Shown piece by piece: positions 8,580 through 63,978 of a stretch of 64,000 nt of DNA. The translations under genes were made by a program, and so were the position numbers. The stretch lies in the NCBI GenBank assembly GCA_902621305.1, contig CACNLM010000003.1:46539-110538 (forward strand), given 5' to 3'. How positions within the stretch are numbered: position 1 is the first letter of the stretch; each line of letters begins with the position of its first letter. The stretch comes from an uncultured Alphaproteobacteria bacterium. Its GTDB lineage: Bacteria; Pseudomonadota; Alphaproteobacteria; HIMB59; GCA-002718135. The notes under the pieces are model-generated. The model had not been told where the DNA came from. It did no database searches and saw only the letters and a list, made by a program, of their open reading frames with translations.

Positions 8580-8590
8580 CTTAATAGTAT

Positions 8591-9853: not shown

Positions 9854-10029
9854 ATTATTTCCTCTCTAAAAAATTGTATCAAATTCATCTTAAAAATTTT
9901 AGGAACTTATAGAAACATTAACTTAACAATTCAGATATGCATATTTAACTTATCCAAAACTGCTAATATTTTTTGGTATTTTAATTTACGATTAAAGTTT
10001 ATAAATTATTTTAATACATAATAATAATA

Positions 10030-11127: not shown

Positions 11128-11435
11128 TGAAACCTGGAGAAGTAATAACAAAACAAAATAGTGATATTAATTTGAATGATTATCGTAATTCAATTACGTT
11201 AAAAGTTTCTAATAGTGGCGATCGACCAATACAAGTTGGAAGCCATTATCATTTTGCTGAAACTAATGAATATTTAAAATTTGATAGAGAAAAATCAAAT
11301 GGTATGCGTCTAGACATTCCATCAGGAACAGCTGTACGATTTGAACCTGGTCAATCAAAAGATGTAGAATTAATTCCAATAGCTGGAGATAGAAAGATAT
11401 TTGGTTTTAATAAGAAAGTAATGGGTCAATTGTAA
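11127..11435 (+). CDS. ureB: Urease beta subunit
   Basis: 102 aa. MKPGE...[13 protein letters not shown]...RFEPG is the typical UreB sequence. 1-nt overlaps on both sides. Confidence 0.95.
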
Positions 11436-13141: not shown

Positions 13142-13146
13142 ATTTT

Positions 13147-13593
13147 ATGCAAACAGCTTTTAAAATAACAGATCACAAAGATGCTAGTAAAAATATACAA
13201 GATGAAATTACTTTATCTTATGAAGAACGATTTATACGACGAAAAAAATTAATAACAGATAATGGAACGGAATTTTTAGTTAATCTAGAAGAAACAGTCA
13301 GTATGGATGAAGATCATTATTTCGAATTAGAAAATGGAAATTTAATTCAAGTAGTTTCAAAAGAGGAAAATTTGATTGAAATTACAGGTAATAATTTAAA
13401 ACATATTATTTGGCATATTGGCAACAGGCATTTACCTTGTCAAATAGAAGAGAAAAGAATTCTTATTCAAGATGATGCTGTAATTTTAGATATGATTTTA
13501 AAATTACACGGGAATGTAAAAAAAGTTTTTGAAAAATTTAAACCTGAAGGTGGAGCTTACGGTATGGGACGTACTCATAGTCATAAACACTAA
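13147..13593 (+). CDS. ureE: Urease accessory protein UreE
   Basis: 148 aa in the position after ureC, with a short His-rich C-terminal tail (RTHSHKH). Confidence 0.85.
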   Translation: MQTAFKITDHKDASKNIQDEITLSYEERFIRRKKLITDNGTEFLVNLEETVSMDEDHYFELENGNLIQVVSKEENLIEITGNNLKHIIWHIGNRHLPCQIEEKRILIQDDAVILDMILKLHGNVKKVFEKFKPEGGAYGMGRTHSHKH

Positions 13594-13594
13594 A

Positions 13595-14230
13595 ATGAAA
13601 AAAATAAAAGATCCTCTTCAAATATTACAAATTTGGTTTTCTTCGTCTTTTCCTGTAGGTTCATATGCATACTCACATGGTTTAGAGGCATTAATAGATG
13701 GTAATAAAATTAAAAATAAAGATGATGTTAGAGAATATTTAGAAGCATTATTATTTTATGGCAGTCTTCGAAATGATTATATTTTTTTAAAGTCTGTGTA
13801 TGTGGGTGAAGAAATTAATGACTTAATTCTAGCAAGTGCTTCTTCAAAAGAAAGACACATAGAAATGATTGATATGGGTAATTCATTTCGAAAGATAATG
13901 AAAGATAGTTGGGAGCTAGTATTAGAAGAAAATACATCTTTTGTTTATTGTATTAGCAAAGCAGCTCTTCATTTTAATATAAAATTTGATGACTTAATTA
14001 AATTTTATCTCCAGTCATATATTTCAAACTTAATTAATGTTTGTGTAAAGCATATTCCTATGTCACAAAAAGATGGACAAATATTAAATGTTAATTTTAT
14101 TGATCAAATACAAAAATTTTTAGATCAATCATACCAATTAACTCTTAAAGATATTGGAACGAGTTTTTTTATTGGTGATATTTTTGCAATTAAACATGAA
14201 AATTTATTTTCAAGGATTTATTTAACATGA
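13595..14230 (+). CDS. ureF: Urease accessory protein UreF
   Basis: The ORF track starts at 13529 inside ureE. I prefer the in-frame ATG at 13595, 1 nt after the ureE stop ([31 protein letters not shown], a UreF-like N-terminal block). Confidence 0.8.
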
Positions 14231-14838
14231 ATAATATAAATGGTCCGTTAAAAGTTGGTATAGGTGGAGGAATAGGAACAGGAAAAACTAGCTTAACAGA
14301 AGCTTTATGCCGTCATTTATCAAACAGAATTTCAATGGCAGTAATATCAAATGATATTTATACAACTGAAGATGCAGAATATTTAATGAGAGCTCAAGTT
14401 CTTCCTATGGAAAGAATTAAAGGCGTTGAAACAGGTGGGTGTCCCCATACGGCTATCCGAGAAGATTGTTCAATTAATTTACTAGCCGTTGATGAAATGA
14501 AAAATAAATTTCCTGATTTAGAATTAATACTTATTGAATCAGGCGGCGATAATTTGGCAGCTACTTTTAGTCCAGAGTTAGTCGATTTAACAATTTATAT
14601 GATTGATGTTGCCCAAGGAGCTGACATTCCAAGAAAAAAAGCTCCTGCTATAAAAAAATCAGATTTGTTGGTAGTTAATAAAGTTGATTTAGCACCTCAT
14701 GTCGATGTTAATATTGATCAAATGGAAGAGGATGTAAAGGAAGCCAGAAATGGGTTACCTTATGTTTTCGGTGAAATGAAAAATAATAACGGAATAGAAA
14801 AAATTTCTGACTTCTTAATTTCTCAAGGTGGGATTTAA
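14227..14838 (+). CDS. ureG: Urease accessory GTPase UreG
   Basis: 203 aa. P-loop GGGIGTGKT, metal-binding [23 protein letters not shown]. Confidence 0.95.
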
Positions 14839-51776: not shown

Positions 51777-52193
51777 CTATAAATATATTTTGTTTGATAA
51801 ACCGTAAATTAAGATTACTGAAATAATAAAAGCAGCAAAAGAAAATGTTAGATCTATGATACTATTTTTTGCGCCTATGTCTTTATCAATAAATTTAAAA
51901 TAAAACATAAGATCATAAATTAGCTGAGCGGTTGCGACTAAAAAAAATAAATTATAAAAAACCCAAGTACCTTCTGGCCCATTGGGTCTAAAAAGAATAT
52001 AAATACCCATAAAAACAAAGCCAAAAATAAAAGTTCCTACATAGCGCATTGGCAATATTCCACTTTGATCTACGTTATATTCTTTTACTATTCCTTGAGG
52101 AAAGAAGAAAATTCTAATTAAAAAAATACTTAGAAGACCTATTATGGCTAGATGTAAAACTAAAAAGAGTAGATTATTAAAATTTTCAATCAT
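51777..52193 (-). CDS. Integral membrane protein (4 TM), unknown function
   Basis: 138 aa, hydrophobic, no motif. Confidence 0.5.
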   Translation of the reverse strand: MIENFNNLLFLVLHLAIIGLLSIFLIRIFFFPQGIVKEYNVDQSGILPMRYVGTFIFGFVFMGIYILFRPNGPEGTWVFYNLFFLVATAQLIYDLMFYFKFIDKDIGAKNSIIDLTFSFAAFIISVILIYGLSNKIYL

Positions 52194-52286
52194 ATTTTTC
52201 TTTTATCAGACATTACTTAAATATCATATTCAAAATATATCAAATATAAATCAAAATTAATGAAAATTAGATAAAACCAATATCAT

Positions 52287-53036
52287 CTAAGGAGACATAT
52301 AAGATACTTCATTTAGATAATTCTCTTCAGGTATCTTAGTTTTTTTCTCATTCTTTCTTAGTTCAATAAGACAGTGATCAATAAGATCAATTTTAGCATT
52401 TAAAAATTTAATATTTTGCGGAATAGGGATGTGAATAGGGTATCCTTTGATAAACTCTACGTGTAGGTCGTATCCACCCATATAAAATTCTTTTAGGATT
52501 TTACCTTTATTTAAGAGATAATTATTGGATGATTCATGAATAATCGCACTTGCTTTGGAATTATTTCGTTCAAGAGACTCAAATAAAGTATTATTTTTTA
52601 TAATTTCCATTGTGTAGGGATAGAGTTCTAATTTTTTCATATCACTAAAGGATAATTCTTTATCAAAAGGCGTTAATTGCAATGTTTCTAACCGTACATA
52701 ATTGATAATTGCTGGTGCATCATCAAAAAGAGCAGCGTAAAGGCTTACAACTATCCTTGTTCCTGTAAAATCAACTGTCGTAAGTTCATAGCCACATAAA
52801 CTGACATCGTCCTGTTCATCAAATACAACCAAAGGATCAAAATAAAATGTTCTTTTCGGATATTCTTGTGCTTCAGTAATAATGAGTTTGTCATTTCCTT
52901 GATCAAGAGGTAGTTCTTTCTTAATAAATTCTTTCGAACTTAATAATTGATCACCTTTAGCAGCACCAGCTAGAAGGAGAACAATAATAAGGAGGGAGAA
53001 TAGAAAAATTATAACTCTTTTGATAACTGGTGCCAC
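52287..53036 (-). CDS. Hypothetical exported/anchored protein
   Basis: 249 aa with N-terminal hydrophobic anchor VIIFLFSLLIIVLLLAGAA. No motif recognised. Confidence 0.5.
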   Translation of the reverse strand: MAPVIKRVIIFLFSLLIIVLLLAGAAKGDQLLSSKEFIKKELPLDQGNDKLIITEAQEYPKRTFYFDPLVVFDEQDDVSLCGYELTTVDFTGTRIVVSLYAALFDDAPAIINYVRLETLQLTPFDKELSFSDMKKLELYPYTMEIIKNNTLFESLERNNSKASAIIHESSNNYLLNKGKILKEFYMGGYDLHVEFIKGYPIHIPIPQNIKFLNAKIDLIDHCLIELRKNEKKTKIPEENYLNEVSYMSP

Positions 53037-53131
53037 TAAAACTTCTATAAAAATAAATTTTGATAAAAATGAGAAATGATTAAGGTAATATTAAGAACAA
53101 ATCTTAATCTAAACATATTTAGAACCCGAAT

Positions 53132-53977
53132 TTGCCTAAATTAATAAATAGAAATATTTCTGTGGCACTGAGTCAAAAAAATATTCATTATAAAATTATA
53201 AAATTAATCATTTTAAAACTCCTCTTAAGTGCCACACCTTTATTAGCTCATTACGAGTTGCCAAGAGAGATTGACTTAATGATGATTGAACATGATTTAA
53301 ATAAATGTTCAAAAGGTAAAATTGATAGTTATTTTTTTCATAAAGAAAAAGATCCAGATTATTGGCTAGGAATCTATACTAGTTCTAATCTTGATTTAGA
53401 ATGTCTAAGGGAACAATTTCAGAATAAGATTACTAATTACCCAATTAATTTTCTAAACAACCCTAGGATTAAAGTTTCACATGATTTGAGCTATTATAAA
53501 TCTTACATTACAAACTTTAATAGAGTAGTTTGTGGTGAAAGATGTTATCTTGATGAAGATTCAATTTTATTTGTAGATGATAATTATTGGTACATCTATG
53601 ATTTATATAATTCTTATGGACACAAAGCGAATTTTATAAAAACTTTAGATAATAAAATCCATATTCAATTATTAGAGTCAACTCATATTAAAAATATTGT
53701 ATTCGATATTAATACTAAAGATTTTTTATATCTTTATGATGGAATTTTAGAATTTCATGATGATTATTATATTGCCACACATTCAAAAAGTTATTTTTAT
53801 GGAGGAGGAGCCTTTTGGTATTCAGCTAAAAGAGATTATCAAAATAATATTTTAGAGTTAATTGATTTAAAAACCAACTTTTCAAATTGTGAAGATACAA
53901 AATTATATTCTTGGTCTGGTCAATTATATGATTTTATTTTGGAAACTAATAATTTACAAAATTGCAGGGAGCATTAA
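53132..53977 (+). CDS. Hypothetical Y/N/D-rich protein with signal-like N-terminus
   Basis: 281 aa. The TTG start is uncertain. No motif recognised. Confidence 0.45.
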   Translation: MPKLINRNISVALSQKNIHYKIIKLIILKLLLSATPLLAHYELPREIDLMMIEHDLNKCSKGKIDSYFFHKEKDPDYWLGIYTSSNLDLECLREQFQNKITNYPINFLNNPRIKVSHDLSYYKSYITNFNRVVCGERCYLDEDSILFVDDNYWYIYDLYNSYGHKANFIKTLDNKIHIQLLESTHIKNIVFDINTKDFLYLYDGILEFHDDYYIATHSKSYFYGGGAFWYSAKRDYQNNILELIDLKTNFSNCEDTKLYSWSGQLYDFILETNNLQNCREH

Positions 53978-54246
53978 TGGAATCTTTATCAAGGGTTATT
54001 TTATTTTTAACATCCTATTTTATTGTTTTAGCTTTATCTTTTAGTATCAATATAGAATTTGAATATTTACAAAGTGGATTATTTCTTTTTATTTCTATCA
54101 TTATAGCTTCTTGGCTCTATTATTTACATTTTAAGAAAAAAGAAGCTCCAGAATTTCAAAAAGAAGTTTTGTATGTTATGTTTTTTCTCTGTCTTGTGAC
54201 TTCTACATGGTCATTTAAATTAAATTATTTTCATTTGTATGATTAA
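53962..54246 (+). CDS. Small membrane protein (3 TM)
   Basis: 94 aa. Overlaps the upstream gene by 16 nt and the downstream gene by 8 nt. Confidence 0.4.
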   Translation: MQGALMESLSRVILFLTSYFIVLALSFSINIEFEYLQSGLFLFISIIIASWLYYLHFKKKEAPEFQKEVLYVMFFLCLVTSTWSFKLNYFHLYD

Positions 54247-54535
54247 TAATTTCTGGTTTTATTTCTTCATTACACCTGTTGTAGTCGCTATTATCGCTAT
54301 AAACTCTTTGTTTGTTCATAAAAGCCCAAGCACACCAATATTTGAAAATGCTTTAGAATATTGTCAAAGCGTGGATAATAATTTCGTTTATAGTGATCAA
54401 GGAACGGCACAAGATATTTGTATTGATGAATATATGAATGCACCTTGGGCATTAGAATTAATTATTAAAATTTTTTTATTATTTGGCTTTATATTTATTA
54501 TACCTCTTATTTTATATTTGAGGTCTAGAAATTAA
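54239..54535 (+). CDS. Small membrane protein (2 TM)
   Basis: 98 aa with terminal hydrophobic helices flanking a Cys-containing loop. Confidence 0.4.
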   Translation: MINNFWFYFFITPVVVAIIAINSLFVHKSPSTPIFENALEYCQSVDNNFVYSDQGTAQDICIDEYMNAPWALELIIKIFLLFGFIFIIPLILYLRSRN

Positions 54536-54867
54536 TTAAGCTCACCAAAACCTAATAATTTTGCACCAAGAACGTTAAATTCAAGAACTCCATTTTTGAC
54601 TGGGTACTTACCGGATTGTTCTGCTATTACTCCCTCATGATAAAGGTATTTGAAATGCTCATTTTCAGTTCTCACTATTAAGTGCCAACCTTCCTCAAAA
54701 TAAGCCTTTATTTCTTCTTTATAAGGGTCTTCTTTAAAAAGATCGTATAGATATTTTTTATCAATTTTTATTCTAATTGTACCATCGTCAGGAACAACCT
54801 TAAAAAATCTTATTTTATTATCTATTTCCATTAAAATTAATTGATTTTTAACATCTTTTAAGTTCAA
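54532..54867 (-). CDS. Hypothetical soluble protein
   Basis: 111 aa from a TTG start (alternative ATG at 54831). Only 13 nt separate it from the divergent zorA-like start. Confidence 0.45.
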   Translation of the reverse strand: MNLKDVKNQLILMEIDNKIRFFKVVPDDGTIRIKIDKKYLYDLFKEDPYKEEIKAYFEEGWHLIVRTENEHFKYLYHEGVIAEQSGKYPVKNGVLEFNVLGAKLLGFGELN

Positions 54868-54880
54868 TATTAATTTAATT

Positions 54881-56512
54881 ATGCAAAATGTTTGCCCAGA
54901 GTATTTATATGGATCACCTTTTGAAGCCTTCTTTTGTTCAATAGGAGACTACTCAAAAATATGGTTTTTTGATCTATTCATTCAACAATGGGTTCCCTTT
55001 CTATTATCAGCTGGAATTTTTGGATTATTAATTTTAGCAATCATTTATTATCAACTAAAAGTATCACCACTTTCAAGAGAGTTATCAAATACACAGTTAT
55101 TTTTAAATAGAAAATCTTCAGGCAATAATGCTTATGACAAAAGAAAGTCTTTTTTAGAAAATTACAATGAGATTAATGAATTTTTTGAAAAAACCAAATT
55201 TTTAAAATATGCTTGGAATGAATTTAGTGAAACATTAATTACTCCTCACAAAGATGATACTCAACGAGATATTAGAAATTCAGAACATAGTGAAAAATTT
55301 TTTTACCAAGAGGCATTATTTGATGAAGCTAAAATAAGATCACAGTACGTCAACTTCATCCCAAGTTTTTTTATTAGTTTTGGATTATTACTAACATTCA
55401 TTGGTTTAGTTGCTGCTCTCATGAAAACTGGAGAGGCATTCGGAGTTGAATCCAATACTGATCAAATGATGAATTCACTACGAGACCTTTTAAGTGCTGC
55501 TACATTTAAATTTACAACTTCAATAGCTGGGATCGCTAGTGCATTAGTTTTTTCAACATATAGTAGAATTTTTATTTATTCAGCTCAATCAGTTAAAATA
55601 AATAATATTTGTTCTATTTTTGAAAAATCACTTCGTTTTGAATCTGTAGAAAAATTAACAATTTCATTAATTGAACAAAATAAACAACAAACTACTGTAT
55701 TCGAAGATTTTGGAGAAAATTTTGCAACTGCTTTAGGAGATAAACTTTCACCTATACATAATGAGTTGCAAAATATGGCTGGGCAATTTGGGCAAATGAA
55801 CCAAGATGCTTTAAGTAACATGATTGATACATTTCAAAATAATTTAACAAGTGGTTCACAAGAAATGATGAAAAATTTAGCTGAAAATTTATTAGAAGTA
55901 AGTAATAAAATTGAAGGCGTGTCATCTTCTATGACTAATTCTGGGGAACAATTTAATACTCAGTTATCAAAAGCGACCGATAACTTAATAACTTCAATTG
56001 AAGACATTAATCAGAAAATAAATTCTCAAGGTGAAACGTTTGAAAAAATATCAGAACTTACAAAAAATGCTGCAGATAGTATTGAAAATTCGACGAAATC
56101 TTTTGTTCAAATTTCTGGGCCATTAGAAGAGATTTCCGAGAAAATGCAAACATCTCTTTCCAATATTTCAGAAACTATTGGTAAGTTATCTGAGCTGCAA
56201 GAAGGCATGAATAGCACAGTTGAAGCAATAAACACGGCCACATCTACAATGCAAAATACGTGGAATGATTATCAAAATAGATTTGAAGGAATTGATGAAA
56301 GTTTTACTAAATCAGTTGAAACTTTTGGAAAGTTTATGAATGCAAATCAACAAAATGCGCAGGATTTTGTAAAAGATATTGAAACACAATTTACGTCTGC
56401 AACTCAAACATTATCATCAGTAATGACACAATTACAAGATACCGTTGATGAAATTGAGTTAAAATTATCAAATGTAAACAAACAAGAAACAGAAGGAAAT
56501 AATCAAAATTAA
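54881..56512 (+). CDS. zorA: ZorA-like protein: MotA/ExbB-type membrane stator subunit with long helical cytoplasmic tail
   Basis: 543 aa. TM1 (WVPFLLSAGIFGLLILAIIYY), a ~110-aa loop, then ExbB/MotA-like TM2-TM3 (SFGLLLTFIGLVAAL ... FTTSIAGIASALVFSTY), then ~300 aa of polar Q/N/S/T/E-rich helical tail. The gene symbol is tentative. Confidence 0.7.
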   Translation: MQNVCPEYLYGSPFEAFFCSIGDYSKIWFFDLFIQQWVPFLLSAGIFGLLILAIIYYQLKVSPLSRELSNTQLFLNRKSSGNNAYDKRKSFLENYNEINEFFEKTKFLKYAWNEFSETLITPHKDDTQRDIRNSEHSEKFFYQEALFDEAKIRSQYVNFIPSFFISFGLLLTFIGLVAALMKTGEAFGVESNTDQMMNSLRDLLSAATFKFTTSIAGIASALVFSTYSRIFIYSAQSVKINNICSIFEKSLRFESVEKLTISLIEQNKQQTTVFEDFGENFATALGDKLSPIHNELQNMAGQFGQMNQDALSNMIDTFQNNLTSGSQEMMKNLAENLLEVSNKIEGVSSSMTNSGEQFNTQLSKATDNLITSIEDINQKINSQGETFEKISELTKNAADSIENSTKSFVQISGPLEEISEKMQTSLSNISETIGKLSELQEGMNSTVEAINTATSTMQNTWNDYQNRFEGIDESFTKSVETFGKFMNANQQNAQDFVKDIETQFTSATQTLSSVMTQLQDTVDEIELKLSNVNKQETEGNNQN

Positions 56513-56515
56513 TAA

Positions 56516-58108
56516 ATGCGAAATAGAACTCACACTCTAGAAGAAGAAAGTTTTTTTCCATCTATTACAGACTTAATGGTTGGAATAATATTTATATTTA
56601 TAATTATTGTAATGGCACTAATATTACAAATTAAAGATGAGCAACAAGTAATACCTAAGCCTTTGTTTGATAAAATAAGCAATTTAACTGAACAGGAAAA
56701 AACTGAATTAGATATATTGATAGATGAGAGAGAGGATATTGATCAAAGAGTAAAGGATTTAGCAAATGAAAAAATTAAAAATAATAAGTTAAATCAACAA
56801 ATTCTCGAAGCAAATAAAATTATTGAAAATCAAAATGAAAAAATAGCAATATTAAATAAGGAGCAAAAAAAAATAGATAAAATATTTGATGATTTAGGAC
56901 TAGAAGTTTTAAAAAATGAAGAATTATCAAATCAATTGATTGATGCAAATAAAACCATCGAAAATCAATCAAAAGTAATAGATGAAAAATTAGTAGTTGA
57001 ATTAAAGAATGAAAAATTAATTGAAGAATTAGATTTAATTAAAAATGATTTAAATAATAAAAATAAAGAATTAATTAAATTAGACAAAAAGATTAAAGAT
57101 TTAAATAATCAAATTATTGAAATACCAATTCTAGAAGAAAAAATTGAAATTCTAAATAAAGAAATTGAGAGTTATTTAGAAATAAATAATACAAACCAAA
57201 ATATAACTGATCAATTAAAATCATTATTAGTTGAAAATAATAAGCTTGAAAAAGAAAATAAATTATTAGTCTCCGAAATTCAAAACAGCAGTGATCTAAT
57301 AAATACAAAAAATAAACTTGAAGAACAAAACTTAATATTAGAAAATAAAATTTATAATCTTCAACAAGAAGTCAATATTTTACAAAATGAAAATTTAAAT
57401 CAAATTAGTGAAACAGAGTTTATTATTGAACAAATAAATAAATTAAAAGATGACGCCACTAAAAATCTTTTAGATGAAATTAAAATATTATTTAAAAAAC
57501 AAAATATAAATATTACTATTGATTATCCTAACTCTAAATTTATTTTATCTTCAAATAAATTATTTTCTCAAGGAAGTTCTACTCTTTTAACAAGTGGAAT
57601 TGAAGAAATTAATAAAATCTCAAATATATTTGCACAAATACTACCATGCTTTTCTTATGAACCATTTTACTTAAAGAAATCTAACGCTTTAAATAATAGT
57701 GAAAAAACATGGAAAAAATTACAAGATAAATACAATCATCAAACTTACTGTAATTCGGAAAAAATGAAAATTTCAAATATTTTTAAAATTAATACATTGA
57801 TGATTGAGGGTCATACTGATCAAGATAATAAAAAAGTAGCTGATGAAGAAGAATTATCAGTAAAACGAGCATCAAATACTTTTAAGCAAATAAGAAAAAA
57901 ACAAATATTAATTTCTGGTTTAACAAATAAAAATGGAGAGCCTATTTTTGGCTATTCAGGATATGGAAGAACAAGGCCCTTAATAGAAAATGCCAAAACA
58001 GAAAATCAAAAATCTAAAAATAGAAGATTAGAGTTTAGATTTTTATTTGGAGAACCAGAAAAAACTCAATTTATGAAATACTTAAAAGAATTACAAAATG
58101 CCTCTTAA
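56516..58108 (+). CDS. zorB: ZorB-like protein: MotB-type anchor (Asp-TM) + ~290-aa coiled coil + OmpA/MotB-like peptidoglycan-binding domain
   Basis: 530 aa. SITD(19)LMVGIIFIFIIIVMALIL parallels the MotB plug/TM with its essential Asp. C-terminal MIEGHTDQDN...LSVKRASNTF...NRRLEFRF are OmpA-like motifs. The central N/K/E/I/L-rich heptad-like region has internal repeats (ANKIIENQNEKI / ANKTIENQSKVI). The gene symbol is tentative. Confidence 0.7.
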   Translation: MRNRTHTLEEESFFPSITDLMVGIIFIFIIIVMALILQIKDEQQVIPKPLFDKISNLTEQEKTELDILIDEREDIDQRVKDLANEKIKNNKLNQQILEANKIIENQNEKIAILNKEQKKIDKIFDDLGLEVLKNEELSNQLIDANKTIENQSKVIDEKLVVELKNEKLIEELDLIKNDLNNKNKELIKLDKKIKDLNNQIIEIPILEEKIEILNKEIESYLEINNTNQNITDQLKSLLVENNKLEKENKLLVSEIQNSSDLINTKNKLEEQNLILENKIYNLQQEVNILQNENLNQISETEFIIEQINKLKDDATKNLLDEIKILFKKQNINITIDYPNSKFILSSNKLFSQGSSTLLTSGIEEINKISNIFAQILPCFSYEPFYLKKSNALNNSEKTWKKLQDKYNHQTYCNSEKMKISNIFKINTLMIEGHTDQDNKKVADEEELSVKRASNTFKQIRKKQILISGLTNKNGEPIFGYSGYGRTRPLIENAKTENQKSKNRRLEFRFLFGEPEKTQFMKYLKELQNAS

Positions 58109-59504
58109 AGAATTATTAAAAAATTATCATATTAAAACTGGTGTTGATAAGCTCAAAGAATTGCCAGCTGAGTCAACAATGTTAAGAAAAGCGAAAAAAA
58201 ACATTAAAATATTATTTGATCCTGTTGTAGAGCCACAACCAAATGACTTAAATGATTTAGAGAAAGTTATTCCTGAGATAATTAATCATTTTCAAAAAGG
58301 CAAAATAAACAATTTATCTCCTTCTTTAAAAAGAAAAATCCCATTCTGTATTTGGTTTAAAAAAAATCCTTTAAAAAAACATATGTACATTATTAATGAT
58401 TACTATGATGATGTTATAGCTAATCCAACAAAACGAAGTTTATGGAACTTAATTTATGCATATTTACTTAATTATGACTTAAATGATATTGATTGCAAAA
58501 AAATTGGAAATGTTATTTTAAAAGTTAATAGTAAAATTAATGATCAACGCATAAGTCCTTTGATTGATAAGTATGCTTTATTTTCACTAGGAGAAGATAC
58601 TAGAAATGTTTCAACATTCTTAAAGTCTTACGACGAAACATTTGAAAATTTTTTGGTTGATGAGTTTTTAGTTAATCAAACTGTTATGCAATCAAAGTTT
58701 ATGGAAACAGTATTCAGATATGTTGCAAGTGATTTCAAAAATAATCTAAACGTTAATTATATTAAAAAAATTATTGATATTTATAAAAATGAAGATGTTA
58801 TTAATTATGAAAATCAATCAATTCATATGATTGAATCATTTCTTGATCCATGGATAAACCAAAAACCTAGTCCAGAAATAAAGAAATTTCTTGAGGAATA
58901 TTTAATTGATGAATTTGGCGATCTACGAAATCCTGATGAAGAAAATAAATGGTTGCAAATAAAAGAAGTGCACAAAAAAATATTTAGACGCTGGCTTGCT
59001 GGTGCTCAAATAGAATTCTTTGTAAATATAATTTCAGATGTTGCTTATATGGATCAGTGGCAATATCGAAGAAAATTTTGGTTAAGTTACTATGATGAGA
59101 ATAGAATTGATGATGCTTATGTAATTTTAGGTAAAGATGCAATCGATTACATAAATACTAAAAATCATGATAACATTATAAATTTTGGAAAATTTGCAAC
59201 TGGCTCTAGAGTTAGAAGAGATCAAAGTGTTCTTTTACTTAAAATAAATGATTTAATTATTGCCGATTGGTCTCACGATGGCGCTTGTCGAATATGGGAA
59301 GAATCATCTAAAAATCATCCTGAAATGTTTAAAGATGAATATACGAGAGATGAATTAGTTGAAAATGTCTCTTTTGATCCAATTAATCACATTAGTTCTG
59401 CTTACGGAACTTGGCAAAGAAGAGTTGCTTCGCACATTCAAAATTATACTGGAATAAGAATGGCACCAAATAAATTTATGCCTCAAGATCACGAGTTAGA
59501 ATGA
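58098..59504 (+). CDS. zorC: ZorC-like protein (EH-signature-like C-terminal domain)
   Basis: 468 aa, overlapping zorB-like by 11 nt. The C-terminal WQYRRKFWLSYY...SVLLLKINDLIIADWSHDGACRIW resembles the EH-signature block (E/D-W-S-H). The call rests on memory of the family plus operon position. Confidence 0.55.
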   Translation: MPLKELLKNYHIKTGVDKLKELPAESTMLRKAKKNIKILFDPVVEPQPNDLNDLEKVIPEIINHFQKGKINNLSPSLKRKIPFCIWFKKNPLKKHMYIINDYYDDVIANPTKRSLWNLIYAYLLNYDLNDIDCKKIGNVILKVNSKINDQRISPLIDKYALFSLGEDTRNVSTFLKSYDETFENFLVDEFLVNQTVMQSKFMETVFRYVASDFKNNLNVNYIKKIIDIYKNEDVINYENQSIHMIESFLDPWINQKPSPEIKKFLEEYLIDEFGDLRNPDEENKWLQIKEVHKKIFRRWLAGAQIEFFVNIISDVAYMDQWQYRRKFWLSYYDENRIDDAYVILGKDAIDYINTKNHDNIINFGKFATGSRVRRDQSVLLLKINDLIIADWSHDGACRIWEESSKNHPEMFKDEYTRDELVENVSFDPINHISSAYGTWQRRVASHIQNYTGIRMAPNKFMPQDHELE

Positions 59505-62500
59505 TAGTTAAATTCAAATATGACAAAGATTGGGTCAGTTTTTCTATCGAAGATAATGGTAAATTAATTGAAACAGATAAATGGACTGAATTATCAAATG
59601 AAAAGTTTTTCAATGGAATTTCTACTTTACTAGGAAAAATTTCGGAGTCAGATAATGAAAATGATGGACTAATTAATGATAGTGAAATTCTAGTTTCTCA
59701 CAGGATAGTATCTGAACTAAACGACAAAGATGCTAATAATTTATCATTACCACCAAAGGTTCCATATATTTTAGATCTAAAACATAAAGGAACATTGTCT
59801 TCCCTAAGCTTTAGTATGTCTGCAGATTGGTTAGATTTAAATGGTCAGTACATTGTTGGTTCAGAACAAGTTGGTTGCATTCTAGAACATGGAAGTAAGG
59901 TTTACAGAACTTTTGATCCATTTTATTCTATCATTAGTAAAATTAATTTAATTTCTGAAATAACTGAAAAAAAAGAACTTTATGAAGTTTGGAGTGATAT
60001 TCAAAATTATTTACCTGAAGAGTTTCAGGAGTCTATTAGAACAACAGACACAATTAAGAGAACAAGAATAGCTTTTGCAACTTCTTTTAGTTTAAATGTC
60101 AAATCAAATGAAGAGGGGTTTGATTATGATCCAGTCTTATTTGGCAAAAAACAAATCGAATTATCAAAAGAAAATAATGAAGAATTATCTGAAAATCAAA
60201 ATTTATTACATCCAACTGTTCATGATAAGTTTGTTGAGAATTTTAATACTTTAAATAATATTCAAAGCCGTATTCCACTTAAAGATGGATGGTATGTATA
60301 CTTAGACCCTAAAATAAAAGAATCTTTAAAGGTTGCTAAATCCATAAAATCTGAAGTCAAAGAAGCTAGAAAGAGGTTTATTAGAAACCCAACTTCAGTA
60401 ATTAAAGAAAAACTTCAAGATAGTTTTGATGAAATTGAAATTAATGAATTTGAAAACGTATTTATAGAAACTACTCAATATTCTGAAAGAGTTTTAGATG
60501 TAGGAGTATTTGAAAAAAAAGTTTTACCATGGATTAAAAGAAAAGGGGAAGAATGGTTTCCTGATACATTTGGTCTTCAAATTGGGGAAAGTTTTATTCA
60601 AGTAAAAAAAGATAATGTTACAGAGTTAAAAGATAAAATTTCAGATGCTGTTAAAAACAACAAAGAGAAAATAAATTGGGATGGAACGGATATTCCGGCC
60701 AATCAAGAATCTTTAGATGCAGTTAATCTTTTAGTTGGATTAGAAAAACCAGAAAATTTAGAAAAAGTTAAAAAACAATCTAAAGAAAAGAAATCAAATA
60801 TTGTTCTGCTCATTGAAGAAAATTTTGAAAATATTGGTTACAAAAAAGAAATAGAAAAGAGAAACAATACAATATCCAGAGATTATAGTTTTTTGAAATC
60901 AACTACTAAATTAAAAAAACATCAGGAAGAGGGTTTTGAATGGCTTTGCTCAAGTTGGGAAAGAGGATTACCGGGCGTATTATTAGCTGATGACATGGGT
61001 CTTGGTAAAACATTACAAGCATTATCTTTTTTACTGTCTGTCATAGAATTAATGAAAAAAAATCTTTTACCCAAAAAACCAATTCTAATCGTTGCTCCTA
61101 CAGCTTTATTAGAAAACTGGATACAAGAAATGAAAATTCATATTGATGAAGTTTCTTTTGCAAATTTACATATTGAAAAAGCTTATGGAAATAATTTGGA
61201 TAAATATAAAAAAGAAAGAACCAATGAAATTTCTACAGGAAAACCTAATCTGGATATTAATGAATTTAAATTATCTGATATTATACTTACAACATATGAA
61301 ACTTTAAGAGACTATCAACACAGTCTTTGTTCAATTCCTTATCAATTATTAATTTTTGATGAGATGCAGAAAATTAAAACACCTGGCACAATTATTACGC
61401 AGGCATCAAAATCAGTTAAGGCGGAATTTATTTTAGGACTTACTGGAACACCAATTGAAAATAGATTATCCGATCTTTGGTGTATATTTGATACTTTATT
61501 CCCACAAATTTTAGGAACACTTAAAAATTTTAGTAAGCAATATGAAAAAGATGACGCTGATCCTCAAGACAATGAAGATCTAAAAAATTTCTTAAGTACT
61601 AAACAAGATGATAAACCTCCACTTTTATTTAGAAGAATGAAAGAGGATGTTTTAGATTCACTTCCAAAGAAAACAATTAATCTTGTTCCTATGGAAATGC
61701 CCTCTGTTCAAGAACAAGCTTATAGTGATGCAATAACTAAGGCATTTGGTGGAACTGGTAAAAGCAGATTTGAAGCATTGAGTAATATACGCTCAATTTC
61801 ACTCCATCCATTACATCCAAGTACATATGAAGGTGAAACTTATATTGATCAATCAGCTAGACTGAAAAAAACTTTTGAAATTTTGGATGAAATAAAACTT
61901 CGTAATGAAAAAGCATTAATATTTTTAGAAAGTAGAGAAATGCAACCTCTATTAGCAATGCTTATTAAAAAGAAATATAAATTAGATAAATTGCCCTTAC
62001 TTATTAATGGTGCTGTATCAGGTAAAGAAAGACAAAACAGGGTTAATGAATTTCAACAATTAGAGGACGGCTTTAATGTCATGATACTTTCTCCAAAAGC
62101 AGGAGGAGTAGGGCTTACATTGACTGCAGCAAATAATGTAATACACCTTCAACGTTGGTGGAATCCTGCAGTAGAGGATCAATGTACAGATAGAGTATTT
62201 AGAATTGGTCAGACAAAAGATGTAAATGTTTATATTCCGCAATCATTGTATAGAGCTAATCCTGATAGTAGTTTTGATGTTAAAATTGATTCATTACTAG
62301 AAAGTAAAAGACTATTAAGTAGAAACATGCTTGTGGCACCTGTCGATTTTGAAAAAGATAGAGATAATTTATTTGAAGAAACAATTAAAACCGCAAGAGG
62401 ATCAAGTGATGAAGAAGAACTTTATCAAATTAATATAGAAGAAATTGATGGAATGGAACCTATACAATTTGAAGAATGGGTTACATCTTTCTTAAATGGA

Positions 62501-62800
62501 AAAGAATATGAAGTTAATAGCACGCCAAAAAGTCATGATGGTGGTGCAGACATAATAGCCAAAAAAAATGGAATTGATTACATAATACAATGCAAACATA
62601 CAGGTAATAGAAAAAATATTTGTGATAATGAAGCTACACAAGATTTAATTAGAGCTAAAAAGAACTATAAAATGGAATCAGCAGGTTTAATATCTGTTAC
62701 AAATGCAAATGGTTATTCTGAAGAAGCAATGACAGATGCGAAAGATCATGCAATAACTCTCATTGATCGAAATAATTTAGTCAATTGGAATCCAAACTAA
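59501..62800 (+). CDS. zorD: ZorD-like SNF2-family helicase fused to a C-terminal Mrr-type restriction-endonuclease domain
   Basis: 1099 aa. SNF2 motifs LLADDMGLGKT (60989), FDEMQKIK (61358), LTGTPIENRL, and helicase-C QRWWNPAVEDQCTDRVFRIGQ. C-terminal FEEWV...HDGGADIIAKKNGIDYIIQCKH (from 62534) is an Mrr_cat-like D...QxK core. The ~480-aa N-terminal region is unassigned. Confidence 0.8.
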   Translation: MIVKFKYDKDWVSFSIEDNGKLIETDKWTELSNEKFFNGISTLLGKISESDNENDGLINDSEILVSHRIVSELNDKDANNLSLPPKVPYILDLKHKGTLSSLSFSMSADWLDLNGQYIVGSEQVGCILEHGSKVYRTFDPFYSIISKINLISEITEKKELYEVWSDIQNYLPEEFQESIRTTDTIKRTRIAFATSFSLNVKSNEEGFDYDPVLFGKKQIELSKENNEELSENQNLLHPTVHDKFVENFNTLNNIQSRIPLKDGWYVYLDPKIKESLKVAKSIKSEVKEARKRFIRNPTSVIKEKLQDSFDEIEINEFENVFIETTQYSERVLDVGVFEKKVLPWIKRKGEEWFPDTFGLQIGESFIQVKKDNVTELKDKISDAVKNNKEKINWDGTDIPANQESLDAVNLLVGLEKPENLEKVKKQSKEKKSNIVLLIEENFENIGYKKEIEKRNNTISRDYSFLKSTTKLKKHQEEGFEWLCSSWERGLPGVLLADDMGLGKTLQALSFLLSVIELMKKNLLPKKPILIVAPTALLENWIQEMKIHIDEVSFANLHIEKAYGNNLDKYKKERTNEISTGKPNLDINEFKLSDIILTTYETLRDYQHSLCSIPYQLLIFDEMQKIKTPGTIITQASKSVKAEFILGLTGTPIENRLSDLWCIFDTLFPQILGTLKNFSKQYEKDDADPQDNEDLKNFLSTKQDDKPPLLFRRMKEDVLDSLPKKTINLVPMEMPSVQEQAYSDAITKAFGGTGKSRFEALSNIRSISLHPLHPSTYEGETYIDQSARLKKTFEILDEIKLRNEKALIFLESREMQPLLAMLIKKKYKLDKLPLLINGAVSGKERQNRVNEFQQLEDGFNVMILSPKAGGVGLTLTAANNVIHLQRWWNPAVEDQCTDRVFRIGQTKDVNVYIPQSLYRANPDSSFDVKIDSLLESKRLLSRNMLVAPVDFEKDRDNLFEETIKTARGSSDEEELYQINIEEIDGMEPIQFEEWVTSFLNGKEYEVNSTPKSHDGGADIIAKKNGIDYIIQCKHTGNRKNICDNEATQDLIRAKKNYKMESAGLISVTNANGYSEEAMTDAKDHAITLIDRNNLVNWNPN

Positions 62801-62801: not shown

Positions 62802-63320
62802 ATGAGTGAAAAAAAATATTCTAACTCAATAATATTTTCTAATGATAAAAAAAACTCTCAATCTCCAGATTTTAGAGGTGAAATAGATATTGAAGGAAAA
62901 AAATATCCAGCTTCAGTATGGTTAAAAATTGCTAAAAATAATAAAAAATATTTATCTGTATCAATTGAAAACACAAATATGGAAAATAATTCAAGATCAG
63001 AAACAATTAAAAGAATAGAAAAATTATCCACTCCAAATATAAAAGACTCAAAACAAATAAGTCAAATCAATCAGTCATTTGAACCAAAGAAAAAATCTTA
63101 TATTAATTCGAAATCTCAAATACCTTCTTCAAGTAAAAGAAAAAAAATAGATAATCTTTCAGCTCGCTATGGTATTTCAACGAATTCAGAAACAAACAAA
63201 AAAAATTTAAGAAATTTTGGAACAGCAGCAAAAAAACCTCCAAAAACATATGCTAGATTTATAGATGAGCCTCTTGGCTCACGTGAAGATTTTATAAAAG
63301 ATAGAAAAAGAAGAAATTAA
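62802..63320 (+). CDS. Basic Lys/Ser/Asn-rich protein with a phage/plasmid-type (DUF736-like) N-terminal module
   Basis: 172 aa, with its ATG 1 nt after the zorD-like stop. IIFSNDKKNSQSPDFRGEIDIEGKKYPASVWLKIAKNNKKYLSVSIE resembles a small module common in phage and plasmid proteins (lFkNd.K....PDy.G.i.i.G..y..s.W.K....G..ylS). The remainder looks disordered and highly basic. Confidence 0.5.
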   Translation: MSEKKYSNSIIFSNDKKNSQSPDFRGEIDIEGKKYPASVWLKIAKNNKKYLSVSIENTNMENNSRSETIKRIEKLSTPNIKDSKQISQINQSFEPKKKSYINSKSQIPSSSKRKKIDNLSARYGISTNSETNKKNLRNFGTAAKKPPKTYARFIDEPLGSREDFIKDRKRRN

Positions 63321-63329
63321 TTTAATACA

Positions 63330-63728
63330 ATGAAGCATTTAAAATTAATTATTTTTAGTACATTAGTATTGGTATTATTTATTCCGACATTAATTTCTTC
63401 TTACATAACTATAAATTATTTTTTTAATAAAAATTTTTTTACAAATACTGAGTATATTGCTTCTGATTTTTACACATCAGATGATGAAATAGGTTTTTAT
63501 ACTGATTGGTGTATAAAGAATAGTTTTGGTGGCAGAACAATTGGAACTGATGAAGAAAAATTGGCCAATTGTATTGATGCAGAACTTAGGTTAACAATGC
63601 TTTCATCAATTATATTACATTTTTCTCAAATTTCGACTCTAATTTTACTTCCAATTTTTTTAATAATTTTTTATTTTTATTTTAAGTGGTTTAGGAGAAA
63701 TTATATTAATAAAACTATAATCCACTAA
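63330..63728 (+). CDS. Small membrane protein (N- and C-terminal TM helices)
   Basis: 132 aa, 9 nt after the previous gene. No motif. Confidence 0.45.
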   Translation: MKHLKLIIFSTLVLVLFIPTLISSYITINYFFNKNFFTNTEYIASDFYTSDDEIGFYTDWCIKNSFGGRTIGTDEEKLANCIDAELRLTMLSSIILHFSQISTLILLPIFLIIFYFYFKWFRRNYINKTIIH

Positions 63729-63978
63729 CATCAATATCGTATCCCTTACCAGTATCAAATTTAATAATATCTTGATCTTCAAATATTCTTATTGGATCAT
63801 CATCTTTATTTTCATCTTTATTTGATAAAAATATTTCTACTTGTTTAAAGTTATCACTTTCTCCAAATAATGTTAAAGTTAATTCTTTGGTTGTCTCATT
63901 AGGATTTACAAAATTTCTATAATCACTTCTTAATGGTATGACTTTCTTATCATAGGGAATAAATTCATAAACATGCAT
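63715..63978 (-). CDS. Hypothetical protein (87 aa)
   Basis: ORF only. Convergent with and overlapping 63330..63728 by 14 nt. Confidence 0.4.
   Translation of the reverse strand: MHVYEFIPYDKKVIPLRSDYRNFVNPNETTKELTLTLFGESDNFKQVEIFLSNKDENKDDDPIRIFEDQDIIKFDTGKGYDIDVSGL

What the first reader, a model, noticed from the sequence alone, without database searches (positions are those of the whole stretch)
56648..57505. ZorB-like subunit carries a ~290-residue coiled-coil spacer between the membrane anchor and the peptidoglycan-binding domain
Seen in sequence: residues ~45-330 form an uninterrupted N/K/E/I/L-rich, heptad-like region. It has internal repeats (LNQQILEANKIIENQNEKIA vs LSNQLIDANKTIENQSKVID; many K-x-L-x-N-E/Q units). 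It sits between the Asp-TM anchor and the OmpA-like domain. From memory, model ZorB and MotB proteins are about 250-300 aa with only a short plug/linker there, so this protein (530 aa) is roughly twice the usual size. Meanwhile the ZorA-like tail (~300 aa) seems shorter than in model systems. Inference: by MotB topology the coiled coil would be periplasmic. If extended it would be far longer than a typical periplasm width. That suggests a folded-back hairpin, an envelope-spanning sensor rod, or a different way of coupling envelope perturbation to the motor. It could also be a lineage-specific low-complexity expansion.
Basis: partly seen in the sequence, partly recalled or inferred. Interest (0 to 1): 0.7.

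Follow-up and report, generated by a model that had tools for sequence, protein, structure and literature searches.

The report
Zorya ZorB with long coiled-coil stalk
A marine SAR11-type bacterium carries a complete type I Zorya anti-phage system whose cell-wall-anchoring subunit (ZorB) has about 250 extra residues of genuine coiled coil between its membrane helix and its wall-binding domain, which matters because the published Zorya model rests on ZorB having no such linker.

Summary
Window 54881-62800 (+) is a complete zorABCD operon, most likely from a Pelagibacteraceae (SAR11) genome. ZorB is 530 aa. It aligns to standard 232-293-position ZorB profiles only at aa 1-45 and about 299-527. 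The roughly 250 residues between are helical, almost free of Pro and Gly, and heptad-periodic (z = 5.5 against shuffles). Core positions show Ile/Asn at a and Leu at d, the pattern of a parallel dimer.

It is not an assembly artefact. An independent 8.7-kb contig is colinear with it, and diverged homologues of 485-572 aa keep one ORF.

Length changes by internal duplication: a 45-aa repeat present here is exactly what the 485-aa homologue lacks.

The architecture is not unique. Among 137 representatives nearest to the wall-binding domain, 14 have spacings of at least 200 aa (median 128). Cultured Alphaproteobacteria carry 70-165-aa coiled-coil stalks. The SAR11 clade is the extreme.

ZorA's tail here is short (321 aa against a median of 437). 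Across 50 type I loci, stalk length and tail length do not trade off (Spearman +0.12).

The likeliest reading is a parallel dimeric stalk that sets how far the wall-binding domain reaches. Rod or hairpin geometry remains unresolved. I rate it a new variant of a known kind, of moderate interest.

The parts
54881..56512 (+). zorA: MotA/ExbB-like motor subunit, 543 aa. Three TM helices start at about aa 32, 156 and 203. The C-terminal helical tail after TM3 is about 321 aa, which is short for type I.
   Evidence: PADLOC ZorA1 3.8e-72. TM and tail estimate. The tail is the 4th shortest of 50 type I loci (median 437).
56516..58108 (+). zorB: 530 aa, the subject of the finding.
   Evidence: PADLOC ZorB1 7.3e-46, matching only the two ends. 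Foldseek top hit is 8vvn_B, the Shewanella type I ZorB.
56516..56647 (+). ZorB aa 1-44: short cytoplasmic N-terminus plus the TM helix carrying Asp19, the proton-carrying Asp of MotB/ZorB-type subunits.
   Evidence: D19 is invariant or nearly so in alignments A1 and A2. AF2 predicts helix 17-43.
56648..56773 (+). ZorB aa 45-86: juxtamembrane segment, conserved within the clade. It contains 'VIPKPLFDKI', which resembles the '(T/Q)VP(K/R)xx(Y/F)(E/D)' motif of other stalk-bearing ZorBs. I infer that it contacts the periplasmic collar of ZorA.
   Evidence: aa 1-86 are 66-86% identical among clade members, against 31-47% in the stalk. Motif comparison by eye with the sequences. The contact role is inference from the E. 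coli structure.
56774..57409 (+). ZorB aa 87-298: variable heptad-repeat stalk, variable in both length and sequence. Ile/Asn dominate position a and Leu dominates position d.
   Evidence: Heptad z = 5.5. a/d conservation. Register composition. Indels of 35-53 aa among homologues.
56774..57043 (+). Tandem 45-aa duplication inside the stalk (aa 87-131 and 132-176). The 485-aa homologue P0002 lacks exactly one copy.
57410..58105 (+). ZorB aa 299-530: helix alpha1 continuous with the stalk, then the OmpA/MotB-like peptidoglycan-binding domain. Features: C378 and C412, the EGHTD motif at 431-435, and R451. The usual 'NW' of 'NWxLSxxRA' reads 'EE'.
   Evidence: AF2 pLDDT is mostly 80-95, with helix 203-328 running into the domain. 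Alignment to 8vvn_B. Invariant columns.
58098..59504 (+). zorC: EH-signature protein, 468 aa. It overlaps zorB by 11 nt.
   Evidence: PADLOC ZorC1 1.5e-77. Pfam EH_Signature 1.8e-42.
59501..62800 (+). zorD: SNF2-type helicase with a C-terminal Mrr-like nuclease domain, 1099 aa.
   Evidence: PADLOC ZorD1 E = 0. Pfam SNF2-rel_dom 8e-48, Helicase_C, Mrr_cat 1.9e-18.

Best explanation
This is the ZorB subunit of a complete type I Zorya (zorABCD) anti-phage system, in a genome most likely of Pelagibacteraceae (SAR11).

The helix that joins the TM segment directly to the peptidoglycan-binding domain (PGBD) in characterised ZorBs has been lengthened here by about 250 residues of heptad repeat. Solved ZorA5B2 complexes hold two parallel ZorB chains. 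In that setting the insert most likely forms a two-stranded, parallel, in-register coiled-coil stalk. At 0.15 nm per residue that is up to about 37-41 nm if uninterrupted. The dimeric PGBD would sit on its far end.

The stalk would work as a spacer or ruler that sets how far from the inner-membrane motor the PGBD can bind the wall. It therefore changes the condition under which ZorB becomes anchored, which is what lets proton-driven ZorA rotate and signal down its tail to ZorC and ZorD.

Stalk length evolves quickly by internal duplication and deletion, while both ends of the protein are conserved.

Shown: operon identity, insert position, helicity, heptad pattern and its conservation, length variation, and real rather than artefactual sequence.

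Inferred: parallel dimer geometry, periplasmic location (by homology), the ruler function, and any link to the reportedly large periplasm of SAR11.
For: Operon and domains.

Insert position: directly after the TM and before alpha1. [quoted passage not shown] A parallel extension of alpha1 is therefore the simplest geometry.

Helicity.

Heptad periodicity: z = 5.5 here and 4.4-10.7 in the four homologues. The a/d positions are conserved twice as well as the others.

Register composition: a = Ile/Asn/Leu/Val and d = Leu >> Ile in all five clade members, with about 50% charged residues at e and g. From established coiled-coil rules, this is the pattern of parallel dimers.

No helix breaker is conserved in the stalk. 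G128 and P204 are not kept in P0003-P0005.

Length is plastic: 485, 530, 537, 572 and 572 aa, plus a contig match of the same length as the window's ZorB. The 45-aa duplication accounts for the difference between 530 and 485.

Related stalks of 70-165 aa with heptad z of 2.7-6.1 occur in ZorBs of Pseudosulfitobacter, Rhodobacter, Rhizobium, Mesorhizobium and others, next to ZorA, ZorC and ZorD. Metagenomic ZorB1 proteins of 407-452 aa show the same.

Real sequence: an 8.7-kb independent contig is colinear with 0 gaps, a metagenome contig is 100% identical, and the same protein sits on NCBI contigs of 140,736 and 130,383 nt.

Host: cluster mates are labelled Pelagibacteraceae bacterium. SAR11 is described as having a 'relatively large periplasmic space' (PMC8437039).
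Against: - A straight rod of 37-41 nm is much longer than the roughly 9 nm inner-membrane-to-wall distance quoted for E. coli. It is also longer than usual Gram-negative periplasm widths (general knowledge). It would have to tilt or bend, or the SAR11 envelope would have to be unusual. I could not obtain envelope dimensions for SAR11; the key paper is not held.
- The AF2 monomer models each contain one low-confidence break, at 180-202 or about 162-165. That leaves a hinge or hairpin open.
- The PGBD motif Asn-Trp, including the equivalent of Asn152, one of four residues mutated together in the E. coli PG-binding mutant, is Glu-Glu here. Wall binding itself is therefore unproven.
- There is no expression evidence. 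RNA runs from the same samples held no matching contigs.
- No dimer or complex model could be computed with the tools available.
Confidence: 0.55

Rival explanations
1. Folded-back stalk. The insert forms an antiparallel helical hairpin, which in the dimer gives a four-helix bundle of about 16-20 nm. The PGBD then returns close to the membrane as in E. coli ZorB. The bundle projects outward as an antenna that senses wall or outer-membrane disturbance.
For: Both AF2 monomer models split the insert into two long helices: 72-179 plus 203-328, or 59-161 plus 166-309, with a low-confidence junction. Half the length would fit a periplasm better than 37-41 nm. The large insertions of P0003 and P0005 fall near the middle of the stalk, where a hairpin tip would be.
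Against: - The two models place the break about 20-40 residues apart, and no Pro or Gly is conserved there.
- The 45-aa duplication lies wholly in the first 'arm', with no matching change in the second.
- Ile/Asn at a and Leu at d is the parallel-dimer pattern.
- After a hairpin, alpha1 would enter the PGBD pointing towards the membrane, the reverse of the solved ZorB arrangement (inference).
- Foldseek on the coil-only model gave no usable match, so the modelled geometry could not even be read.
Confidence: 0.2
2. Largely neutral expansion. In a very AT-rich genome a K/N/I/E-rich helical linker drifted in length by replication slippage or duplication. It is tolerated because any helical spacer will do, and its exact length has no function.
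For: The stalk is the least conserved part, at 31-47% identity against 56-86% in the flanks. Its length varies by up to 87 aa within one clade. It has the lowest GC of the window, 0.237. ZorA length does not co-vary with it.
Against: - The heptad pattern is maintained in every homologue, with z of 4.4-10.7, and a/d positions are selectively conserved.
- No member of the clade has lost the stalk: every full-length member found is at least 485 aa.
- Coiled-coil stalks also occur in GC-rich Alphaproteobacteria with Ala/Glu/Arg/Leu composition, so AT bias is not the cause.
- SAR11 genomes are strongly streamlined (general knowledge), which makes about 750 nt of dispensable coding sequence unlikely.
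Confidence: 0.18
3. Artefact: repeat collapse or expansion during assembly, or two genes fused by a sequencing error.
For: The region is of low complexity, and short-read contigs from metagenomes break and cross-match within it. Many short partial matches and spurious 'joints' appear.
Against: - One 8,700-nt contig from an unrelated run spans 56300-58300 with 8 substitutions and no gaps.
- A 100% identical ZorB is present on another metagenome contig, and the same protein sits on two long NCBI contigs.
- Five homologues at 45-60% identity keep a single uninterrupted ORF with the same end domains.
- DNA repeats are short and diverged.
Confidence: 0.01
4. Not a Zorya component: a MotB/Pal-like wall anchor of some other 5:2 motor that merely sits next to defence genes.
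For: Pfam sees only a sub-threshold OmpA match. Several PDB hits by fold are MotB, MotS or PomB.
Against: - The best profile matches are ZorB1 (7e-46), and the best structural match is a type I ZorB.
- The gene lies 4 nt after a ZorA1 gene and overlaps an EH-signature zorC, which is followed by zorD.
- The same four-gene order recurs in homologous loci.
Confidence: 0.02

Closest known systems
ZorB of characterised type I Zorya systems: E. coli (PDB 8qyd; Hu et al., Nature 2024, PMC11946911) and Shewanella sp. ANA-3 (PDB 8vvn; Nat Commun 2025, PMC11890865)
   Same: - Same operon type, zorABCD.
- Same N-terminal TM helix with the conserved Asp.
- Same OmpA/MotB-like PGBD. 8vvn_B is the top Foldseek hit and aligns by sequence at 2.2e-11.
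- The Cys pair C378/C412 is nearly invariant in the family.
   Different: - The characterised proteins, 246 and 282 residues long as listed for 8qyd_F and 8vvn_B, join the PGBD to the TM 'without a linker'. About 250 heptad residues are intercalated here.
- The PG-motif Asn-Trp is Glu-Glu.
- Only two Cys are present, so at most one of the two disulfides described for E. coli ZorB can form.
Stalk-bearing ZorB1 subfamily, approximated by PADLOC model PDLC00612. Examples: Pseudosulfitobacter sp. SM2401 (L055, 358 aa), Rhodobacter kunshanensis (L071, 353 aa), Rhizobium altiplani (L070, 332 aa), a Neomegalonema MAG (L057, 419 aa), and metagenomic P0163 (452 aa)
   Same: - A heptad, Pro/Gly-poor helical segment at the same site, between a 'VP(K/R)' juxtamembrane motif and alpha1 of the PGBD.
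- Same type I gene context.
   Different: - Their extra segments are 70-205 aa, against about 250 here and up to about 300 in P0003 and P0005.
- Identity to the window protein is only 21-33%.
- They pair with ordinary long-tailed ZorA (tails 448-569 aa), whereas this clade has a 321-aa tail.
- I found no published description of this subfamily's stalk.
MotB/PomB flagellar stator subunits
   Same: - The 5:2 motor B-subunit layout: a TM helix with Asp, then something between the TM and an OmpA-like PGBD.
- The PGBD fold is similar.
   Different: - MotB has a plug helix and a flexible linker that extends on activation. It is not a long, rigid-looking heptad coiled coil.
- There are no flagellar genes nearby, and the partners here are ZorC and ZorD.
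Periplasm-spanning partners of other 5:2 motors: GldM/PorM of the type 9 secretion or gliding motor, and TolA/TonB with TolQR/ExbBD (from general knowledge; the motors are listed together in PMC12204202)
   Same: An inner-membrane 5:2 proton motor whose dimeric or central component carries a long periplasmic extension, so the motor acts at a distance from the membrane.
   Different: - No sequence or domain relationship to the stalk was detected.
- Those extensions reach outer-membrane partners and transmit force outward.
- Here the distal module is a peptidoglycan-binding domain, and the output is thought to be cytoplasmic, through the ZorA tail.
Braun's lipoprotein Lpp as a periplasmic coiled-coil ruler (general knowledge)
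   Same: A periplasmic alpha-helical coiled coil whose length sets a distance within the envelope.
   Different: Lpp is a short trimer linking the outer membrane to the wall. This is a long, probably dimeric, stalk attached to an inner-membrane motor.

Membership tests
Type I Zorya (zorABCD) | Four genes zorA-zorB-zorC-zorD on one strand, in that order | tested here: met
   The genes are at 54881-56512, 56516-58108, 58098-59504 and 59501-62800, all on +, separated by 4 nt or overlapping. Each is assigned by PADLOC to ZorA1, ZorB1, ZorC1 and ZorD1.
Type I Zorya (zorABCD) | ZorA: MotA/ExbB-like subunit with three TM helices and a long C-terminal helical tail | tested here: met
   ZorA1 3.8e-72. 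TM helices start at about aa 32, 156 and 203, with a 321-aa tail. The tail matches only coiled-coil or apolipoprotein-like Pfam models below threshold. It is at the short end, 4th shortest of 50.
Type I Zorya (zorABCD) | ZorB: N-terminal TM helix with a conserved Asp, plus a C-terminal OmpA/MotB-like peptidoglycan-binding domain | tested here: met
   D19 is invariant or nearly so. ZorB1 7.3e-46. Foldseek 8vvn_B E = 2e-9. phmmer against the PDB 2.2e-11.
Type I Zorya (zorABCD) | PGBD fused to the TM helix without a linker. This is a feature of the structurally characterised ZorBs and a premise of their activation model, not of the PADLOC family definition. | tested here: not met
   About 250 residues lie between the TM and the segment that follows the TM directly in Shewanella ZorB. 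Statement about E. coli ZorB: PMC11946911.
Type I Zorya (zorABCD) | PG-binding residues of the PGBD (E. coli ZorB Tyr151, Asn152, Leu155, Arg159) and the stabilising disulfides | tested here: inconclusive
   I did not align E. coli ZorB itself. Counting back from the shared LSxxRA motif, the Leu and Arg equivalents are L447 and R451, both invariant. The preceding pair, N-W in the Shewanella ZorB alignment and in the family consensus, reads E-E here, and E444 is invariant in the clade. Only two Cys are present (378 and 412), so at most one disulfide can form. Binding cannot be judged from sequence.
Type I Zorya (zorABCD) | ZorC with an EH-signature domain | tested here: met
   Pfam EH_Signature 1.8e-42, above the cut-off. 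ZorC1 1.5e-77.
Type I Zorya (zorABCD) | ZorD with an SNF2-type helicase and a nuclease domain | tested here: met
   SNF2-rel_dom 8.2e-48, Helicase_C 6.3e-14, Mrr_cat 1.9e-18. ZorD1 E = 0.
Type I Zorya (zorABCD) | Protects against phage infection in a proton-motive-force-dependent way | not testable with these tools
   This needs expression in a host and phage challenge.
Two-stranded parallel coiled coil | Heptad periodicity with a hydrophobic a/d core over a long, helix-breaker-free stretch | tested here: met
   z = 5.5 against shuffles, with 65% L/I/V/M at a/d. There are 2 Pro or Gly in about 288 residues. AF2 predicts helix. The pattern is conserved in homologues.
Two-stranded parallel coiled coil | Parallel, in-register dimer rather than a hairpin, trimer or tetramer | tested here: inconclusive
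   The pattern a = Ile/Asn and d = Leu favours a parallel dimer, and the ZorB2 stoichiometry and parallel TM helices of solved complexes fit. No multimer model could be made, and the monomer models show one uncertain break.
MotB flagellar stator subunit | Plug helix plus flexible linker, with flagellar gene context | tested here: not met
   The best profiles are ZorB, not MotB. The neighbours are zorA, zorC and zorD. The spacer is a heptad coiled coil rather than a flexible linker.

The most novel reading that the evidence does not exclude
The stalk is a calibrated envelope sensor rather than a passive spacer. In these tiny cells, ZorB holds its wall-binding domain tens of nanometres from the motor, or threads a rod across the periplasm. 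Phage-induced changes in envelope spacing or wall integrity would then be read out by a different geometry from the 'linker-less ZorB cannot reach the wall until the envelope is deformed' mechanism proposed for E. coli. Stalk length, which evolves fast by duplication, would tune what is sensed. If so, natural stalk-length variants from 0 to about 300 residues would form a ready-made series for testing how Zorya is triggered.
Probability: 0.25. Interest if true: 0.75.

Novelty: new variant of a known kind. Interest (0 to 1): 0.5.

Why it matters
How Zorya senses infection is still open. The leading model (PMC11946911) argues that ZorB has no linker, so its wall-binding domain cannot reach peptidoglycan until a phage deforms the envelope.

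Natural type I systems with otherwise canonical components carry coiled-coil stalks of about 10-45 nm at exactly that position. This means one of three things: the reach of ZorB is a tuned parameter, anchoring is constitutive in these lineages, or the trigger is something else.

The graded series found here gives direct experimental handles. It runs from 242-aa linker-less ZorBs, through 320-450-aa stalked ZorBs in cultured Alphaproteobacteria, to 485-572-aa forms in SAR11-type genomes.

It also documents a complete Zorya system in a member of the most abundant, genome-streamlined marine bacteria. In such a genome, about 750 nt of extra coding sequence is unlikely to be kept without use.

Tried and rejected
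1. Full-length homologue search. The word index was swamped by coiled-coil words, and only 10 hits were returned.

2. Repeat search with the C-terminal domain. It gave only 6 fragmentary hits. The exhaustive representative search with aa 299-530 was what produced a survey unbiased for linker length.

3. First ZorA tail estimates. They were wrong for technical reasons. Projection from the phmmer domain end failed on the self-hit, and Ala-rich tails gave false TM calls. I corrected this by accepting TM helices only in the first 290 aa.

4. Trade-off between ZorB stalk and ZorA tail. Tested and rejected: rho = +0.12, p = 0.41, n = 50.

5. Geometry of the stalk. The AF2 output gives no coordinates. 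Foldseek on the coil-only model returned nothing meaningful, with all E > 2. Foldseek on the full model aligned only the PGBD. Hairpin or rod could not be read from the models.

6. Metagenome scan for more clade members. Only 4 loci were found, so the clade is rare in that collection. The species-representative genome scan found no close relative, with a best identity of 33%.

7. Expression. No RNA run holds the locus.

8. SAR11 envelope dimensions. The cryo-tomography paper (Zhao et al. 2017, PMC5244296) is not held. Only a secondary statement that the periplasm is 'relatively large' was available.

9. The many 'joints' and loose ends are 20-26-nt cross-matches of unrelated low-complexity contigs. 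They are not structural variants, and I disregarded them in favour of the long colinear contigs.

10. L011's 942-aa 'ZorB' is an upstream over-extension of the ORF in a GC-rich genome, not a giant ZorB.
Full report
**What is at the coordinates.** The window is AT-rich (GC 0.24-0.33). Between 54881 and 62800 four genes lie head to tail on the + strand. PADLOC assigns them to ZorA1 (543 aa, 3.8e-72), ZorB1 (530 aa, 7.3e-46), ZorC1 (468 aa, 1.5e-77) and ZorD1 (1099 aa, E = 0). Pfam confirms the EH-signature domain in ZorC. It also confirms SNF2, Helicase_C and Mrr-type nuclease domains in ZorD. This is a complete type I Zorya operon. The finding's coordinates, 56648-57505, correspond to ZorB residues 45-330.

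**Host.** Proteins at least 90% identical to this ZorA and ZorD are deposited as '[Pelagibacteraceae bacterium]' (MDC3131864.1 and MDC3131866.1), which is the SAR11 family. The same ZorB sequence sits on NCBI contigs of 140,736 and 130,383 nt and in Tara, JGI and ENA marine metagenomes. The rest of the window fits such an oligotroph: urea and oligopeptide ABC transporters, urease and a choline-dehydrogenase-like enzyme. The host assignment rests on MAG labels and is of moderate confidence.

**Checking the observation.**
- Residues 45-330 are 72% Leu, Lys, Asn, Ile and Glu. Between residues 50 and 337 there are only two helix breakers, G128 and P204.
- AlphaFold2 with a 10-sequence alignment predicts a TM helix at 17-43, then helices 48-55, 59-70, 72-179 and 203-328. 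The last runs without interruption into a confidently modelled OmpA-like domain. The only gap in the helix, 180-202, has pLDDT below 50.
- A coil-only model of aa 40-345 places its single break at about 162-165 instead.
- A register-tracking heptad score for residues 50-330 is 5.5 SD above 200 shuffles. In the best register 65% of a/d positions are Leu, Ile, Val or Met, against 32% overall, and there are six register shifts.
- ZorB profiles of 232-293 positions match only the two ends.
- Against the solved Shewanella type I ZorB, our 303-358 aligns to its 54-109, directly after its TM helix. Our 425-521 aligns to its 138-239. The true insert is therefore about residues 45-298, roughly 250 residues. 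Residues 299-330 are the ordinary alpha1 helix of the wall-binding domain.
Residues 87-106 against 132-151 are 11/20 identical and score above all 200 shuffles. The rest are not.

**Artefact excluded.** DNA repeats in the gene are short and diverged. Twenty DNA runs from six studies hold at least half of the region's 31-mers. One 8,700-nt contig from an independent run covers 56300-58300 with eight substitutions and no gap. A further metagenome contig encodes a 100% identical protein. Homologues at 45-60% identity keep one uninterrupted ORF with the same end domains.

**Is the coil under selection?** Within the clade, aa 1-86 are 66-86% identical and the C-terminal domain 56-72%. The stalk (87-300) is only 31-47% identical. 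Inside the stalk, however, a/d positions are 54% identical and 59% hydrophobic in homologues, against 27% and 21% elsewhere. Each homologue has its own strong heptad signal, with z of 4.4-10.7. So the structure is kept while sequence and length drift.

Full lengths are 485, 530, 537, 572 and 572 aa, plus one contig match of the same length as the window's ZorB. The 485-aa protein lacks exactly one copy of the 45-residue duplication present here. P0003 and P0005 carry further 'EKDLEISILE...' repeats. Length clearly changes by internal duplication and deletion.

**How unusual is it?** I searched 1.84 billion cluster representatives with the C-terminal domain alone, so that linker length could not bias the ranking. 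In 137 usable hits among the best 150, the distance from the TM helix to the EGHTD motif has a median of 128 residues. Fourteen are at least 200, eight at least 250 and four at least 300. The cluster containing this protein, represented by the 537-aa P0004, is the longest at 398. The window protein itself measures about 390 by the same yardstick.

Most long ones are ZorB1 by PADLOC, and their extra segments are Pro/Gly-poor and heptad-periodic. Examples are P0163 (452 aa, z = 9.4), P0147 (407 aa, z = 8.1) and P0152 (412 aa, z = 4.9).

In species-representative genomes, stalked ZorBs of 305-419 aa occur in Pseudosulfitobacter, Rhodobacter, Falsirhodobacter, Rhizobium, Mesorhizobium, Camelimonas, Devosia and others. 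They lie next to ZorA, ZorC and ZorD and carry 69-163-residue leucine-zipper-like segments. They share a 'VP(K/R)' motif just outside the membrane, which the SAR11 proteins also have ('VIPKP'). Sphingomonad ZorBs of 242 aa represent the linker-less form.

The architecture is therefore a recurrent, unremarked subfamily trait, and this clade is its extreme. Neither structural paper on ZorAB mentions it, and text searches found nothing else.

**ZorA tail.** This ZorA has about 321 residues after TM3. That is the fourth shortest of 50 type I loci, whose median is 437 and range 305-590. The E. coli tail spans residues 223-729. The proposed trade-off is not general. Stalk length and tail length are uncorrelated (Spearman +0.12, p = 0.41), and ZorBs with 170-263-residue spacings sit beside ZorAs with 448-569-residue tails. 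In the SAR11 clade ZorA is 542-543 aa whether ZorB is 530 or 572 aa. A short tail in a cell only about 0.1-0.2 um wide (my recollection of SAR11 dimensions, not checked here) would be a separate adaptation.

**How it most likely works.** In solved ZorA5B2 complexes the two ZorB TM helices run in parallel and continue through alpha1 into an already dimerised wall-binding domain. Inserting heptad repeats into that helix most simply yields a parallel, in-register two-stranded coiled coil. The register composition agrees. Position a holds Ile, Asn, Leu or Val, position d is dominated by Leu, and about half of e and g residues are charged, in all five clade members. By established coiled-coil rules this is the dimer pattern. 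No helix breaker is conserved.

At about 0.15 nm per residue, the insert alone would measure about 37 nm, 31-44 nm across the clade, and 10-25 nm in the cultured Alphaproteobacteria.

Hu et al. argue that the linker-less E. coli ZorB cannot reach a wall about 9 nm away until infection deforms the envelope. Anchoring then permits proton-driven rotation and signalling down the ZorA tail. A stalk changes that reach. I therefore read it as a tunable spacer or ruler. It may be matched to a wider periplasm, since SAR11 is said to have a relatively large one. Alternatively it may make anchoring constitutive.

This part is inference. A straight 37-41 nm rod is longer than ordinary periplasms, so it must tilt, bend at a hinge or fold back. 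The hairpin alternative has some support from the AF2 breaks. It is weakened by their inconsistent position, by the one-armed 45-residue duplication and by the a/d pattern.

One further caution concerns wall binding. The 'NW' of the wall-binding motif 'NWxLSxxRA' is 'EE' here, and E444 is invariant in the clade. Only one Cys pair is present. Wall binding therefore needs testing.

**Comparison and verdict.** By every testable family criterion this is a type I Zorya. It departs in one feature that the characterised members share and that their model relies on, namely direct fusion of the wall-binding domain to the TM helix. Functionally it recalls other 5:2 motors whose central component reaches far into the periplasm (GldM, TolA, TonB) and periplasmic coiled-coil rulers such as Lpp, though without homology to them. 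It is a new variant of a known kind.

The interest is moderate. It does not overturn the system's identity. It does challenge a specific premise of the current activation model, and it offers a natural length series with which to test that premise.

Noticed in passing
window 11584-11873 (-): An Rfam 5_ureB_sRNA match (101 bits, full length) lies antisense inside the urease alpha-subunit gene (11435-13141 +). It most simply reflects conservation of the urease coding sequence rather than a demonstrated antisense RNA in this organism.
   Followed up: partly
window 3912-14838: Urea ABC transporter genes (UrtA 8591-9853 -, and a 671-aa protein at 6516-8531 - whose C-terminal part is UrtB-like) lie beside urease genes. 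Further ABC transporters follow at 26-31 kb, giving a nutrient-scavenging gene content typical of marine oligotrophs.
   Followed up: partly
window 57842-57868 (ZorB aa 443-451): The peptidoglycan-binding motif that reads 'DNWxLSxxRA' in most ZorBs reads 'DEEELSVKRA' here and 'DEGKLSSERA' in P0003-P0005. The Asn equivalent is an invariant Glu in this clade. This could mean altered wall chemistry or altered binding.
   Followed up: partly
window 51777-54867 and 62802-63978: The Zorya operon is flanked by small ORFs, several of them predicted membrane proteins, with no significant Pfam match. They include a Lys-rich 172-aa ORF starting 2 nt after zorD (62802-63320) that also has no PADLOC match. 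This may be a variable genomic island. I did not examine whether the 172-aa ORF travels with the operon.
   Followed up: no
protein P0112 (485 aa; representative library, no locus): This ZorB1 homologue has a roughly 250-residue insert at the same site that is Pro/Gly-rich, lacks heptad periodicity (z = 0.8) and looks beta-rich. The TM-PGBD junction therefore seems to be a general insertion point, not one used only for coiled coils.
   Followed up: partly
proteins P0007, P0009, P0010 (406-415 aa): These distant ZorB/MotB-like proteins have no stalk but carry a conserved C-terminal extension of about 130 residues after the OmpA-like domain. I did not investigate its identity or context.
   Followed up: no
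window 56000-58000: This interval has the lowest GC (0.237) and the highest AT skew (+0.246) of the whole window. [quoted passage not shown]
   Followed up: no
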